DNA of 19,751 bases, taken from IMG/VR virus record IMGVR_UViG_2734482585_000002. The stretch is one strand, 5' to 3'. Positions 14,178-19,751 of the stretch are shown piece after piece. The position numbers and the translations under genes were made by a program. This stretch comes from a virus (lineage: Duplodnaviria > Heunggongvirae > Uroviricota > Caudoviricetes). The notes under the pieces are model-generated. The model was not told the origin of the DNA and did no database searches. It worked only from the letters and a program-made list of their open reading frames with translations. Numbering within the stretch: position 1 is the first letter of the stretch; every line of letters begins with the position of its first letter.

Positions 14178-17858
<3,681 letters not shown>

Positions 17859-17884
<26 letters not shown>

Positions 17885-18404
17885 TCAGCAACCCCGGTAT
17901 CAGTTCATCCAGCGCGGCTGCTTTGTTCATGGCTTTGATGATATCCCGTTTCAGGAAATCAACATGTCGGTTTTCCAGTTCCGGAAAACGCCGCTGCACC
18001 GACAGGGGGATCCCGTCGAGAATACTGGCAATTTCACCTGCGATCCGCGACAGCACGAAAGTACAGAATGCGGTTTCCACCACTTCAGCGGAGTCTCTGG
18101 CATTTTTCAGCTCCTGTGCGTCGGCCTGCGCACGCGTAAGTCGATGGCGTTCGTACTCAATAGTCCCTGGCTGGAGATCTGTCTCGCTGGCCTGCCGCAG
18201 TTCTTCAACTTCCCGGCGCAGCTTTTCGTTCTCAATTTCAGCATCCCTTTCGGCATACCATCTTATAACGGCGGCAGAGTCATAAAGCACCTCATTACCC
18301 TTGCCACCGCCTCGCAGAACGGGCATTCCCTGTTCCTGCCAGTTCTGAATGGTACGGATACTCGCACCGAAAATGTCAGCCAGCTGCTTTTTGTTGACTT
18401 CCAT
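17859..18404 (-). CDS. Nu1: Terminase small subunit Nu1
   Basis: 181 aa ORF MEVNKKQLADIFGASIRTIQNWQEQGMPVLRGGGKGNEVLYDSAAV...; ATG at 18402-18404. Confidence 0.96.
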
Positions 18405-18416
18405 TGTTCATTCCAC

Positions 18417-18541
18417 GGACAAAAACAGAGAAAGGAAACGACAGAGGCCAAAAAGCCCGTTTTCAGCACCTGTCGTTTCCTTTCTTTTCAGGGGGTGTTT
18501 TAAATAAAAACATTAGGTTACGGCGAAGAAGAACGGAAACG
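18417..18541 (-). promoter_or_regulatory. cosB terminase-binding region: R1 (~18427-18444), R2 (~18470-18487, inverted), I1 IHF-site region (~18491-18520), R3 (18524-18541)
   Basis: Three copies of the CGTTTCC(N)TTC element in the lambda arrangement; R1 and R2 form a 15-nt perfect inverted repeat (18430-18444 with 18470-18484); an AT-rich segment lies between R2 and R3. Confidence 0.85.
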
Positions 18542-18581
18542 CCTTAAACCGGAAAATTGTCATAAATAGCGAAAACCCGCG

Positions 18582-18593
18582 CGCCTTCCGCCC
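18582..18593 (-). promoter_or_regulatory. cosN cohesive-end 12-mer, variant: GGGCGGAAGGCG on the minus strand
   Basis: Flanking sequence on both sides (ggttacg / cgcgggttttcgc on the minus strand) matches the lambda cos junction as I recall it; the 12-mer sits between them. Confidence 0.8.
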
Positions 18594-18629
18594 CGTAACC
18601 TGTCGGATCGCCGGAAAGGACCCGCAAAA

Positions 18630-18644
18630 TGATAATAATTATCA
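18630..18644. promoter_or_regulatory. Perfect 7-1-7 palindrome TGATAAT-A-ATTATCA (Fur-box-like), candidate operator
   Basis: Read directly from the sequence; identical to the 7-1-7 Fur-box consensus TGATAATnATTATCA. Confidence 0.5.
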
Positions 18645-18792
18645 TCTACATGTCACAACGTGCATCTACGCCATCAAACCACGTCAAATAATCAATTATG
18701 ACGCAGGTATCGTATTAATTGATCTGCATCAACTTAACGTAAAAACAACTTCAGACAATACAAATCAGCGACACTGAATACAGGGCAACCTC

Positions 18793-19026
18793 ATGTCAAC
18801 GAAGAACAGAACCCGCAGAACAACAACCCGCAACATCCGCTTTCCTAACCAAATGATTGAACAAATTAACATCGCTCTTGTTCAAAAAGGGTCCGGGAAT
18901 TTCTCAGCCTGGGTCATTGAAGCCTGCCGCCGGAGACTGTGCTCAGAAAAAAGAGTTTCGCCTGAAGCAAACAAAGAAAAGAGTGACATTACTGAATTGC
19001 TCAGAAAACAGGTTAGACCAGATTGA
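18793..19026 (+). CDS. Small right-end accessory protein, YlcI/YnfO-like (DUF3950-like, possible ribbon-helix-helix fold), 77 aa
   Basis: ORF MSTKNRTRRTTTRNIRFPNQMIEQINIALVQKGSGNFSAWVIEACRRRL...; N-terminal ~50 aa match the small ORF next to cos in lambda and DLP12/Qin-type prophages as I recall them; weak AGGG RBS. Confidence 0.75.
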   Translation: MSTKNRTRRTTTRNIRFPNQMIEQINIALVQKGSGNFSAWVIEACRRRLCSEKRVSPEANKEKSDITELLRKQVRPD

Positions 19027-19083
19027 AGCAATTTAGATAATCGTGCAGACTACGCCCCCTCATATCACATGGAAGGTACTACA

Positions 19084-19494
19084 ATGGCTCAGGTTGCCAT
19101 TTTTAAACAAATATTCGATAAAGTGCGAAATAATTTAAACTATCACTGGTTTTATTCTGAACTAAAACGTCACAATGTCTCACATTACATTTACTATTTA
19201 GCCACAGAGAATATTCATCTTGTTCTTGAAAACGATAATACGGTTTTAATAAAAGGACAGGGTAAGGTTGTAAATGTAAGATTTTCAAAAAATAAATGCC
19301 TTATAGAAGCCACCTTAAAAGGATTCAAATCAGGAGAGTTATCATTTTACGAATACAGGAAAAATCTTGCTACAGCAGGGGTTTTCAGATGGATTACAAA
19401 TATCCACGAAAACAAAAGGTATTACTATACCTTTGATAATTCATTACTCTTTACTGAGAACATACAGAACACTACACAAATATTTCCGCACTAA
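19084..19494 (+). CDS. YbcV-like protein (DUF1398 family), function unknown, 136 aa
   Basis: [58 protein letters not shown]...; second ATG chosen because GGAAGG lies 7 nt upstream; roughly 75% identical to the lambda/DLP12 homolog as recalled. Confidence 0.8.
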
Positions 19495-19751
19495 ATCATA
19501 ACGTCCGGTTTCTTCCGTGCCAGAACCGGACTCGCTGGCATGATGAAATATGTGTACCCGGTAACCCCGGTGTGCATCGTTTTTGATTATTCCCGCACAC
19601 TCGCGCAGAAGGAGTTCCCCGTCGGGCTACGGTCTCTGTTAATACGGGAATACGGCGACGATTGGATTTGCCCCTATATTTCCAGACATCTGTTATCACT
19701 TAACCCATTACAAGCCCGCTGCCGCAGATATTCCCGTGGCGAGCGATAACC

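What the first reader, a model, noticed from the sequence alone, without database searches (positions are those of the whole stretch)
18793..19494. Two-gene right-end accessory cassette (YlcI/YnfO-like plus DUF1398/YbcV-like) of unknown function
A 77-aa basic protein with a plausible ribbon-helix-helix-like N-terminus (NIRFPNQMIEQINIAL...GNFSAWVIEACRRRL) is followed 57 nt later by a 136-aa DUF1398-type protein. They lie in the region between the lysis genes and cos, where lambdoid phages carry accessory genes such as bor. The pairing of a small putative DNA-binding protein with a conserved uncharacterised partner could be a toxin-antitoxin-like, exclusion or regulatory module, but nothing in the sequence establishes that. 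The YbcV-like protein is clearly diverged from the lambda copy, most strongly in residues ~60-95.
Basis: inference. Interest (0 to 1): 0.45.

Follow-up and report, generated by a model that had tools for sequence, protein, structure and literature searches.

The report
Known lambdoid accessory genes ynfO–ydfO
The two genes are real, but they are the common ynfO–ydfO-type accessory genes found beside the cos site of lambda-like E. coli prophages: a small, probably Arc-like DNA-binding protein and a separately acquired AT-rich gene of unknown activity, not a toxin–antitoxin or defence pair.

Summary
Both ORFs are present as described. One is a 77-aa basic YlcI/YnfO (DUF3950) protein at 18793-19026. 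The other, 57 nt downstream, is a 136-aa DUF1398 protein at 19084-19494. Both are transcribed away from cos/Nu1 and against the late operon.

This is the Qin ynfO–ydfO arrangement. It is contiguous in 2677 of 5426 complete E. coli genomes and is already annotated by PGAP.

The pairing is positional, not a module:
- DUF1398 almost always has a ylcI-type gene upstream.
- YlcI-type genes usually occur without DUF1398: at least 112 of 155 phage records, and all 39 examined loci in other Enterobacterales, where many sit in PICI-like satellites.
- In lambda an opposite-strand gene (p79/ybcW) separates the two.
- DUF1398 is a discrete 32% GC island with its own promoter-like site over a PdhR-type box.

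YlcI models as strand-helix-helix and carries the Arc/Mnt N-x-R-x-P strand motif, but fold and profile searches gave no significant match. DUF1398 is about 75% identical to YdfO (NMR structure 2HH8), whose function is unknown.

Perfect Fur and FNR boxes lie between cos and ylcI. Near-identical (Fur) and identical (FNR) K-12 sites bind these factors, but FNR-dependent expression was not seen.

Verdict: an ordinary, known gene pair whose functions remain unknown.

The parts
18793..19026 (+). ylcI/ynfO-type gene: 77 aa, pI 10.9, DUF3950. Predicted strand-helix-helix core at residues 9-52 plus a variable C-terminal tail.
   Evidence: ORF. Pfam DUF3950 2e-20 and NCBIfam YlcI_YnfO_N. PHROG 949. AF2 topology. 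Residues 1-49 differ at one position from the unannotated 64-aa ORF of HK630/lambda and from Qin ynfO and DLP12 ylcI.
19084..19494 (+). DUF1398 (ydfO/ybcV/lambda p78-type) gene: 136 aa, GC 31.6%. Alternative upstream ATG at 19069.
   Evidence: ORF. Pfam DUF1398 3e-43. E=2.9e-67 to the YdfO NMR structure 2HH8. dN/dS 0.21-0.35. AT-rich island. No hydrophobic segment, max KD19 0.39.
19071..19076 (+). Shine-Dalgarno-like GGAAGG, 7 nt before the ATG at 19084.
   Evidence: Read directly from the sequence.
19014..19041 (+). Promoter-like site for the DUF1398 gene (TAGACC, 16-nt spacer, GATAAT), inside the 3' end of ylcI and the spacer.
   Evidence: Consensus scan, 9 of 12 matches. GATAAT and the upstream box are conserved in the Qin and HK630 copies. 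Function not shown.
19007..19023 (+). PdhR-type box AACAGGTTAGACCAGAT, overlapping the -35 of the DUF1398 promoter-like site.
   Evidence: One base different from the Qin site AAcaGGTcagACCAgaT recovered by PdhR gSELEX. ybcV mRNA fell 10-fold in a pdhR mutant (PMC7660256; alignment). The core motif alone is not above chance in this window.
18719..18732 (+). Perfect FNR box TTGATCTGCATCAA, 74 nt before the ylcI ATG.
   Evidence: Unique in the window, 0.03 expected. The identical K-12 sequence is bound by FNR in ChIP-chip and EMSA (PMC1802558) and in ChIP-seq with the highest motif score among the entries shown (PMC3688515 supplement). A box lies at the same distance in a Salmonella homologue.
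18754..18759 (+). -10-like GACAAT at class-II spacing from the FNR box. Implied start near 18766, giving a leader of about 27 nt.
   Evidence: Read directly from the sequence. The Salmonella L135 locus has TAAAGT at the same offset from its FNR box. Inferred, not mapped.
18630..18644 (.). Perfect Fur 7-1-7 box TGATAATAATTATCA between cos and ylcI.
   Evidence: Unique in the window, 0.01 expected. Its centre lies 233 bp upstream of Nu1, the same offset as the Fur site gel-shifted for nohA (PMC2189734). Conserved in lambda, Qin and DLP12.
18629..18656 (-). Sigma-70-like promoter (GTGACA, 16-nt spacer, TATCAT) overlapping the Fur box and pointing through cos towards Nu1.
   Evidence: Consensus scan, 10 of 12 matches. 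Context only; not part of the two genes.
18582..18593 (.). cosN cohesive-end 12-mer (reverse complement GGGCGGAAGGCG). It marks the boundary between the packaging genes and the accessory region.
   Evidence: Alignment with lambda/HK630, Qin, DLP12 and PhiR49_1. The position follows from the known lambda left-end sequence (my own knowledge).

Best explanation
These are two neighbouring but separable accessory genes (morons) of the lambdoid right arm. They are read against the late operon, so they can be expressed from the prophage.

Gene 1 (YlcI/YnfO type) most likely encodes a small dimeric Arc/Mnt-like ribbon-helix-helix DNA-binding protein. It would place a two-stranded ribbon (T12, N14, R16 facing DNA) and a basic N-terminal arm into the major groove. 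It would act as a transcriptional repressor in the cos-proximal control region: on its own promoter and possibly on neighbouring ones. Its promoter region carries FNR and Fur sites that are occupied at the corresponding K-12 loci.

Gene 2 (DUF1398, YdfO fold) is an independently acquired AT-rich gene for a soluble cytoplasmic protein. It has its own promoter under host control (PdhR, H-NS, stress). Its biochemical activity is unknown.

Shown here: gene identity, families, position, composition, distribution, and the presence of the transcription-factor sites. Shown elsewhere for K-12 copies: Fur, FNR and PdhR binding. Inferred: the RHH fold, the repressor role and its targets, expression in the lysogen, and any benefit to the host.
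For: Identity: family hits. The same arrangement occurs at 98-100% identity in phages PhiR49_1, Kati and ev099 and contiguously in 2677 of 5426 complete E. coli genomes, annotated 'YlcI/YnfO family protein | DUF1398 domain-containing protein'.

Separability:
- DUF1398 is found in 43 phage records and YlcI in 155.
- None of the 39 examined YlcI loci in other Enterobacterales has DUF1398 or Nu1/gpA within 4 kb. Their neighbours include AlpA, integrase and primase domains.
- In Stx phages YlcI sits alone beside HNH/TerS.
- In the lambda/DLP12 allele group the order is Nu1(-) ylcI(+) ybcW(-) DUF1398(+) in 68 of 80 loci.
- GC is 44.6% for ylcI, 31.6% for DUF1398 and 53.9% for the window, with sharp edges.
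- DUF1398 has its own promoter-like site over a PdhR-type box.

DNA-binding reading of YlcI:
- pI 10.9.
- AF2 strand-helix-helix with core pLDDT 80-88.
- hhalign places NIRFP on Arc NLRWP and Mnt NFRMP in the same register.
- R16, F17, P18, F37, W40, V41 and C45 are invariant across diverse homologues.
- In satellites the domain is fused to a TerS DNA-binding HTH.

Host control: Fur and FNR boxes are unique in the window and experimentally bound at the homologous K-12 sites — identical for FNR, one base different for the tested nohA Fur site. ybcV rose 1.67 log2 under microaerobiosis. ydfO was strongly induced by ionic-liquid shock.

Dispensability: CRISPRi on lambda p78 had no effect on plating.
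Against: - No significant sequence, profile or fold match links YlcI to any RHH family. The RHH call rests on a moderate-confidence monomer model and a short motif.
- No standard sigma-70 promoter was found upstream of ylcI.
- Genome-scale data list the ylcI/nohB and nohA/ynfO FNR peaks among those with no FNR-dependent change in expression (PMC3688515 Table S9). A reporter from this region showed marginal FNR effects, but it was oriented towards nohA.
- No terminator was found after either gene, so read-through co-transcription is not excluded.
- DUF1398 nearly always has ylcI upstream: 79 of 80 loci, and 61 of 65 loci with enough sequence. This could reflect dependence rather than history.
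- Nothing indicates what DUF1398 does. The AF2 model was unusable (pLDDT 47).
Confidence: 0.55

Rival explanations
1. Regulator-effector pair. YlcI is the dedicated transcriptional regulator of the adjacent DUF1398 gene, and of ybcW where present, so the two genes form one functional unit even though they are not one operon.
For: DUF1398 is almost never found without a ylcI-type gene within about 1.3 kb upstream. All 43 DUF1398 phage records are lambda-type right ends. The DUF1398 promoter-like site lies at the 3' end of ylcI. Two TTAGA repeats overlap its -35 and -10 (my reading of the sequence).
Against: Most YlcI genes have no DUF1398 partner. The different base composition implies separate acquisition. 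The DUF1398 upstream region already carries host-factor sites (PdhR; H-NS at ybcV/ybcW). No YlcI operator has been identified.
Confidence: 0.15
2. Packaging-linked role. YlcI binds DNA near cos, or interacts with small-terminase DNA-binding domains. It would protect the prophage cos from untimely cleavage, silence the cos-proximal Fur-box promoter that reads into Nu1, or bias which cos is packaged.
For: The gene is divergent from the first packaging gene in two unrelated terminase module types: Nu1/A here and HNH/Terminase_2 in Stx phages. The 120 bp before its ATG are almost invariant across lambda, Qin, DLP12 and this window. In cf-PICI-like satellites the DUF3950 domain is fused to a copy of the helper TerS DNA-binding domain, 64% identical over 53 aa. 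That architecture parallels Rpp (PMC6739421).
Against: The gene is antisense to late transcription, when packaging happens. Minimal cos fragments and in vitro lambda packaging need no such protein (established knowledge of cosmids; my own knowledge). Many family members lie far from any terminase, for example in SPI-5 and next to alpA/int. The window protein has no TerS-like domain.
Confidence: 0.12
3. Toxin-antitoxin, abortive-infection or superinfection-exclusion two-gene module. YlcI would be an RHH antitoxin or regulator and DUF1398 the toxin or effector.
For: A small basic RHH-like protein lies directly upstream of a second small gene on the same strand, with a short spacer and a prophage accessory position. 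The neighbouring lambda gene p79 is sensed by a defence system, which shows that the region matters in phage-defence conflicts.
Against: Co-occurrence is one-sided. An opposite-strand gene interrupts the pair in lambda-type alleles. There are no PADLOC or Pfam toxin/antitoxin hits above threshold: Csx23 E=0.023, and HEPN_AbiA_CTD at 15.8 bits against a cutoff of 27. The YlcI C-terminal tail, where antitoxins bind their toxin, is the least conserved part and differs between alleles that have near-identical partners. DUF1398 was expressed and its structure solved (2HH8). ydfO was induced about 100-fold without reported killing.
Confidence: 0.07
4. DUF1398 is a virion 'head protein' or 'envelope protein', as several database records label it.
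For: PHROG 413 is labelled 'head protein'. RefSeq and GenBank records use 'head protein' or 'putative envelope protein'.
Against: The gene is on the strand opposite to the late operon. It has no signal peptide or hydrophobic segment (max KD19 0.39). CRISPRi knock-down does not reduce plating. It is absent from most YlcI-bearing lambdoid phages. No experimental basis for the labels turned up in the literature searches.
Confidence: 0.02
5. The ylcI reading frame is preserved only because it overlaps cis-acting DNA next to cos, and it makes no functional protein.
For: The first 49 codons are nearly identical in lambda, Qin, DLP12 and the window, with very few synonymous changes as well. The upstream 120 bp are invariant.
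Against: Homologues of 36-57% amino-acid identity keep the same conserved residues in other genera and in unrelated DNA contexts. Curated Pfam and NCBIfam models exist. The family recurs as a domain fused to another protein.
Confidence: 0.04

Closest known systems
E. coli K-12 Qin prophage ynfO-ydfO (also DLP12 ylcI-ybcW-ybcV, and lambda unannotated 64-aa ORF / p79 / p78)
   Same: Same genes, order, orientation and distance from Nu1 and cos. The control region is near-identical, including the Fur, FNR and PdhR-type boxes. The window has the Qin-type arrangement without ybcW.
   Different: The DUF1398 allele is about 75% identical to YdfO and 76% to lambda p78, with a divergent block at residues 58-95. 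The YlcI C-terminal tail (residues 50-77) differs from that of lambda.
P22 Arc and Mnt (ribbon-helix-helix repressors)
   Same: Small size, a basic N-terminal arm, predicted strand-helix-helix order, an N-x-R-aromatic/hydrophobic-P strand motif in the same register, and a glycine-containing turn between the helices. The Arc and Mnt sequences and Arc's DNA contacts through Q9, N11 and R13 are from my own knowledge.
   Different: No significant sequence, profile or structure match (hhalign probability 0.2-1.6%; Foldseek found nothing). Not in an immunity region. No operator known.
YdfO solution structure (PDB 2HH8)
   Same: Homologous over the full length, E=2.9e-67, about 75% identical.
   Different: It is a structural-genomics entry with no assigned function. 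I could not run a fold comparison from it.
Lambda morons bor and lom
   Same: Accessory genes outside or against the late operon, dispensable for lytic growth, present or absent between related phages, with atypical base composition. The moron concept and prophage expression of bor and lom are established knowledge (PMC7067206).
   Different: Bor and Lom are outer-membrane proteins with known phenotypes. These two proteins have no export signal and no known phenotype.
Type II toxin-antitoxin pairs with RHH antitoxins (ParD, CcdA, RelB types)
   Same: A small RHH-like protein upstream of a second small protein on the same strand.
   Different: Partners are not co-inherited, there is no toxin homology, the genes have separate promoters and composition, and the pair is interrupted in lambda.
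Rpp of E. coli PICIs (redirecting phage packaging)
   Same: Relevant only to the satellite relatives. DUF3950 fused to a TerS DNA-binding-domain copy mirrors Rpp's design of a TerS-mimic domain plus a dimerisation domain.
   Different: The window protein has no TerS-like domain. Rpp is a winged helix plus coiled coil and is unrelated in sequence.

Membership tests
Pfam DUF3950 / NCBIfam YlcI_YnfO_N | Score above the curated cutoff of the family model | tested here: met
   72.8 bits against cutoff 25; 35.2 bits against cutoff 30.
Pfam DUF1398 (YdfO-like) | Score above the curated cutoff, full-length match | tested here: met
   147 bits against cutoff 22, profile positions 1-119 of 119. E=2.9e-67 to 2HH8.
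Ribbon-helix-helix superfamily (Arc/MetJ/CopG) | Strand-helix-helix topology of about 45 residues | tested here: met
   AF2: strand 9-18, helix 19-32, helix 37-52, block pLDDT 80-88. This is a monomer model of moderate overall confidence (mean pLDDT 70).
Ribbon-helix-helix superfamily (Arc/MetJ/CopG) | Significant sequence, profile or fold similarity to a known member | tested here: not met
   No RHH family in Pfam even at E<=10. A PDB profile search found none. hhalign probability was 0.2-1.6% against Arc, CopG and Mnt. Foldseek against PDB and BFVD gave no hit. These methods are weak for 45-residue domain-swapped folds.
Ribbon-helix-helix superfamily (Arc/MetJ/CopG) | Obligate dimer forming a two-stranded antiparallel ribbon that binds the major groove | not testable with these tools
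   Needs a multimer prediction or experiment.
Type II toxin-antitoxin module | The two genes are co-inherited as a unit | tested here: not met
   YlcI occurs without DUF1398 in at least 112 of 155 phage records and in all 39 examined loci of other Enterobacterales.
Type II toxin-antitoxin module | Single operon with adjacent or overlapping genes | tested here: not met
   57-nt spacer with its own promoter-like site. ybcW lies on the opposite strand between the genes in 68 of 80 lambda-type loci.
Type II toxin-antitoxin module | Recognisable toxin family, or demonstrated toxicity neutralised by the partner | tested here: inconclusive
   No toxin model matched above threshold. Toxicity cannot be tested here.
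Known anti-phage defence systems (PADLOC) | Match to a defence-system protein model | tested here: not met
   No family for YlcI. Only Csx23 at E=0.023 (12.7 bits) for DUF1398.
Moron (phage accessory gene unit) | Atypical base composition with sharp boundaries | tested here: met
   DUF1398 is 31.6% GC against 53.9% for the window; the profile dips to 27.5-35% only over 19000-19500. ylcI is less extreme at 44.6%.
Moron (phage accessory gene unit) | Present or absent between otherwise similar phages; dispensable for lytic growth | tested here: met
   Distribution. Lambda p78 is non-essential by CRISPRi.
Moron (phage accessory gene unit) | Own promoter and terminator; expressed from the repressed prophage | tested here: inconclusive
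   Promoter-like sites and bound host-factor sites are present. No terminator was found. No FNR-dependent expression was seen in K-12. Transcripts of the K-12 copies have been detected.
Rpp-like packaging redirectors | Domain mimicking the small-terminase DNA-binding domain | tested here: not met
   The window protein has only DUF3950. The TerS-like domain is found only in satellite relatives.

The most novel reading that the evidence does not exclude
DUF3950 proteins are a phage and satellite DNA-packaging control element. The RHH-like unit stands alone beside cos in lambda-like and Stx phages. In capsid-forming PICI-like satellites it is fused to a copy of the helper's small-terminase DNA-binding domain. 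In both settings it would bind cos-proximal DNA or partner with terminase DNA-binding domains. The effect would be to guard the prophage cos or to decide whose DNA is packaged, making it an Rpp-like mechanism for Terminase_2-type helpers.
Probability: 0.1. Interest if true: 0.65.

Novelty: already known. Interest (0 to 1): 0.22.

Why it matters
As found, this is an ordinary pair. It is one of the most common gene pairs in E. coli prophages, both families are already curated, and one has a solved structure.

Its remaining value is as a reminder that two very widespread lambdoid genes still lack a function, one of them unannotated in the HK630 record and several lambda records.

The analysis gives concrete handles:
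- an Arc-like motif in YlcI;
- experimentally occupied Fur and FNR sites in the cos-ylcI control region;
- a PdhR-type box overlapping the DUF1398 promoter-like site.

The ybcW-less arrangement seen here is the one that lambda escapers of the Vulcan defence acquire by recombination with Qin.

If YlcI proved to act on cos or on terminase, that would add a new layer to a packaging system considered fully understood.

Tried and rejected
- **Rosetta-stone fusion.** A 233-aa 'DUF3950+DUF1398' protein cluster (P0134, 761 members; also P0130) looked like evidence of functional linkage. Its DNA carries the TGA stop, so the W comes from genes called with code 4. Rejected as an artefact.
- **Programmed read-through.** In the window the two ORFs are in frame, separated by one TGA and 19 sense codons. 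The stop-to-stop distance is 468 nt in 47 loci but 467 or 469 nt in 29 of 79 loci. The frame is not conserved, so this was rejected.
- **Fold assignment for YlcI.** Foldseek against PDB and BFVD gave no hit with E<1. hhalign against Arc, CopG and Mnt was not significant. A profile search against PDB hit only SF6 TerS, through the satellite C-terminal extensions.
- **Fold assignment for DUF1398.** The AF2 model had pLDDT 47 because the alignment was shallow. Foldseek recovered 2HH8 only by sequence (TM 0.36) and nothing else credible. No inference was drawn.
- **Defence and toxin models.** PADLOC and Pfam gave only sub-threshold noise: Csx23, HEPN_AbiA_CTD.
- **Known RNA families in 18300-19751.** Only sub-threshold miRNA-like hits on the cosB inverted repeat.
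- **Intrinsic terminators.** None found after either gene.
- **Reported phenotype of YdfO.** The statement in PMC4077768 that YdfO overexpression raises oxidative-stress resistance cites Wang 2010. That paper concerns YfdO of CPS-53 and does not mention ydfO. Discarded.
- **FNR boxes in satellite-borne YlcI genes.** Absent. They occur only in the lambda-type and Salmonella SPI-5 loci.
- **PdhR core motif as a statistic.** Not enriched in the window: 6 found against 7 expected. The site rests on homology to the gSELEX site only.
Full report
**1. What is there**

The window is a lambda-like phage or prophage read in the opposite orientation to the lambda map. The large terminase gene A lies at 15959-17884 and Nu1 at 17859-18404, both on the minus strand. 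The lambda-type cos region follows, with cosN at about 18582-18593.

The two ORFs of the finding lie on the plus strand, diverging from Nu1:
- ORF 1: 18793-19026, 77 aa, pI 10.9.
- ORF 2: 19069/19084-19494.

The ATG at 19084 has a GGAAGG 7 nt upstream, while the ATG at 19069 has none. The 136-aa product and the 57-nt spacer are therefore correct.

Family scores:

| Protein | Model | Score |
|---|---|---|
| 77 aa | Pfam DUF3950 | E=2e-20 |
| 77 aa | NCBIfam YlcI_YnfO_N | above cutoff |
| 77 aa | PHROG 949 | unknown function |
| 136 aa | Pfam DUF1398 | E=3e-43 |
| 136 aa | PHROG 413 | labelled 'head protein' |

The DUF1398 protein is 76% identical to the lambda/HK630 p78 copy. By my count on the alignment, 18 of its 33 differences fall in residues 58-95. 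Another allele (P0124) is mosaic for exactly that block.

**2. How common it is**

- The 1.35-kb stretch from Nu1 to the window end matches phages PhiR49_1, Kati, Chlobot and ev099 at 98-99%, and lambda, HK629/630 and DE3 at about 88% in two pieces.
- Lambda/HK630 carries the same ylcI-type ORF (64 aa), unannotated in that record. It is followed by p79/ybcW on the other strand and then by p78.
- The contiguous two-gene stretch is found in 2677 of 5426 complete E. coli genomes, annotated by PGAP as 'YlcI/YnfO family protein' and 'DUF1398 domain-containing protein'.
- It is the ynfO-ydfO arrangement of the K-12 Qin prophage (L099).
- Of 80 IMG/VR loci with the same 77-aa allele, 79 have DUF1398 at the same distance.

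**3. Is the pair a unit?**

The linkage is one-sided.
- tblastn finds DUF1398 in 43 GenBank phage records, all lambda-type. It finds YlcI in 155, most of the extra ones Stx-converting phages.
- In an Stx2 phage, YlcI stands alone, 41 bp from and divergent to an HNH/TerS/TerL packaging module.
- In one genome per GTDB species, the Escherichia/Shigella loci (and lambda control-DNA contaminants in unrelated taxa) have DUF1398. None of the 39 examined loci from other Enterobacterales (36-57% identical YlcI) has DUF1398, Nu1 or gpA within 4 kb.
- The neighbours of those loci are enriched for AlpA (11), integrase (6), Arm-DNA-binding, DUF4222, AntA and primase domains. These are features of PICI/P4-like satellites.
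- Conversely, DUF1398 almost always has ylcI upstream: 79 of 80 loci, and 61 of 65 loci with enough sequence. In the lambda/DLP12 allele group the two are separated by ybcW on the opposite strand in 68 of 80 loci.
- Base composition also separates them: ylcI 44.6% GC, DUF1398 31.6%, window 53.9%. The dip is confined to 19000-19500.
- A protein cluster that appeared to fuse the two domains is a gene-calling artefact in which TGA was read as Trp.
- The in-frame relation of the two ORFs is not conserved.

I conclude that DUF1398 was inserted next to a pre-existing ylcI slot in one lineage. The pair is not an obligate module.

**4. The YlcI-type protein**

The family is narrow. Only 108 clusters at 50% identity, out of 1.84 billion representatives, reach E<=0.001, and many of those are error-laden reads of lambda control DNA.

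Genuine diverse members conserve R16, F17, P18, I25, F37, W40, V41 and C45. The tail after residue 50 is variable.

AlphaFold2, with a 25-sequence alignment, gives a strand (9-18), a helix (19-32), a short turn and a helix (37-52), with block pLDDT 80-88. This is the ribbon-helix-helix order.

The strand reads T12-R13-N14-I15-R16-F17-P18. hhalign aligns this in register with Arc (Q-F-N-L-R-W-P) and Mnt (F-N-F-R-M-P). In Arc the equivalent Q9, N11 and R13 contact the bases (my own knowledge).

None of this is statistically supported:
- hhalign probabilities are at most 1.6%.
- Pfam shows no RHH family even at E<=10.
- The PDB profile search and both Foldseek searches found nothing.

I therefore treat 'Arc-like RHH DNA-binding dimer' as the most likely reading, at about 60%. 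It is not a demonstrated membership.

**5. The DUF1398 protein**

- It is about 75% identical over its full length to YdfO, whose NMR structure (2HH8) was solved by structural genomics without a function.
- It has no hydrophobic segment.
- It evolves under purifying selection, dN/dS 0.21-0.35.
- Its lambda homologue is dispensable for plating by CRISPRi.
- The labels 'head protein' and 'envelope protein' have no support that I could find.
- My AF2 model was too poor to use.
- The one functional claim in the literature, that YdfO overexpression protects against oxidative stress, is a mix-up with YfdO.
- Expression data for the K-12 copies exist: ydfO is strongly induced by ionic-liquid shock, ybcV is down 10-fold in a pdhR mutant, and ybcV is up under microaerobiosis.

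**6. Control region**

Three host-factor sites stand out.

(a) Fur box
- A perfect 7-1-7 box lies at 18630-44. It is unique in the window, with 0.01 expected.
- Its centre lies 233 bp upstream of Nu1. That is the same offset as the nohA Fur site that was shifted by Fur in vitro and found by Fur titration.
- A minus-strand promoter-like site overlaps it and points through cos to Nu1.

(b) FNR box
- A perfect box, TTGATCTGCATCAA, lies at 18719-32. It is unique in the window, with 0.03 expected.
- It sits 74 nt before the ylcI ATG, with GACAAT at the spacing expected for a class-II FNR promoter.
- The identical K-12 sequences upstream of nohA/ynfO and nohB/ylcI are bound by FNR in ChIP-chip, EMSA and ChIP-seq. 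They have the highest motif score among the supplement entries shown.
- A 56%-identical homologue in Salmonella arizonae/diarizonae lies in SPI-5 between sopB and pipD, in unrelated flanking DNA. It has an FNR box at -76 with TAAAGT at the same offset.
- Against a regulatory role: the same genome-scale study lists both K-12 peaks among those with no FNR-dependent expression change. The only reporter tested faced nohA.

(c) PdhR-type box
- AACAGGTTAGACCAGAT lies at 19007-23. It is one base different from the Qin site recovered by gSELEX.
- It overlaps the -35 of a promoter-like site (TAGACC, 16-nt spacer, GATAAT) just upstream of DUF1398.

The 120 bp before the ylcI ATG are almost invariant among lambda, Qin, DLP12 and this window.

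**7. Most likely mechanism**

- The two genes are separate accessory genes read against the late operon. They can therefore be expressed from the prophage, and late transcription converging on them should interfere with that expression.
- YlcI is probably a dimeric Arc-like repressor acting in the cos-proximal control region.
- DUF1398 is a separately promoted, host-regulated soluble protein of unknown activity.

Rivals, in order of weight:

| Rival | Confidence |
|---|---|
| YlcI as dedicated regulator of DUF1398 | 0.15 |
| A packaging- or cos-linked role for YlcI | 0.12 |
| A toxin-antitoxin or exclusion module | 0.07 |
| Conservation only through cis-acting DNA | 0.04 |
| A virion protein | 0.02 |

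**8. A lead outside the window**

In capsid-forming PICI-like satellites of E. coli (L091/L092), two DUF3950 genes lie between alpA/int and the primase operon. One of them (P0332, with several diverged relatives) is fused to a Terminase_2-type HTH. That HTH is 64% identical to the N-terminal DNA-binding domain of the flanking prophage's TerS and 53% identical to the satellite's own TerS.

This design parallels Rpp, which combines a TerS DNA-binding-domain mimic with a dimerisation domain. It is the main reason I keep a packaging-related reading of the family alive.

**9. Verdict**

The feature is already known and extremely common, and its function remains open. Interest is low to moderate.

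Noticed in passing
window 18582-18593: The cosN cohesive-end 12-mer differs from lambda at 5 positions: reverse complement GGGCGGAAGGCG against GGGCGGCGACCT. The closest phage, PhiR49_1, as well as Qin and DLP12, keep the lambda sequence. The exact variant occurs in 14 IMG/VR contigs. It could be a different cos specificity or a defective cos.
   Followed up: partly
window 18629-18656 (minus strand) and 18630-18644: A sigma-70-like promoter (GTGACA, 16-nt spacer, TATCAT; 10 of 12 matches) overlaps the perfect Fur box and points through cosQ/cosN/cosB into Nu1. This implies iron-regulated transcription across cos towards the terminase genes in a prophage. The near-identical K-12 nohA site (one base different) binds Fur.
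   Followed up: partly
window 18719-18759: A perfect FNR box with a -10-like hexamer at class-II spacing lies upstream of ylcI. FNR occupies the identical K-12 sites strongly. No FNR-dependent expression change was reported, and the only reporter tested faced the opposite gene.
   Followed up: yes
L135 4001-4168 and L137 (Salmonella enterica subsp. diarizonae / arizonae): A DUF3950 gene lies in SPI-5 between sopB (IpgD family, with its chaperone) and pipD (Peptidase_C69). It has an FNR box at the same distance from its start codon as in the window.
   Followed up: partly
L091/L092 4590-5363 (E. coli cf-PICI-like satellite inside a prophage TerS region): Two DUF3950 genes lie in tandem. One is fused to a Terminase_2 HTH that is 64% identical to the flanking prophage's TerS N-terminus and 53% to the satellite's own TerS. 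It is a candidate Rpp-like packaging redirector. Several diverged versions exist (P0299, P0341-P0345).
   Followed up: partly
window 19024-19083: ylcI and DUF1398 are in the same frame, separated by a single TGA and 19 sense codons. Public gene calls made with code 4 turn this into a false 233-aa fusion protein with 761 members. The frame relation is not conserved among alleles.
   Followed up: yes
L101-L132, L150, L165 (GTDB genomes of Streptomyces, Cohnella, Pseudomonas, Flavobacterium and others): Many unrelated genomes carry 95%-identical lambda right-end sequence on short contigs or at contig ends. The protein databases hold hundreds of frameshifted versions on contigs of about 3.5 kb. 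This looks like lambda control-DNA contamination (my reading).
   Followed up: no
lambda/HK630 L001 748-954 (absent from the window): p79/ybcW, which sits between ylcI and p78 in lambda but is missing here, is reported as the trigger of the Vulcan NADase defence. Lambda escapers lose it by recombination with Qin, so they acquire the arrangement seen in this window.
   Followed up: no
window 19540-19749 (+): A 69-aa ORF lies downstream of DUF1398. Only its last 29 residues match the C-terminus of PHROG 20197 (158 positions), which suggests a remnant of a longer gene. PhiR49_1 and ev099 annotate ORFs of about 53-54 aa here.
   Followed up: partly
literature (PMC4077768 citing PMC3105296): The statement that YdfO overexpression increases oxidative-stress resistance traces to a paper about YfdO (CPS-53), which never mentions ydfO.
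   Followed up: yes
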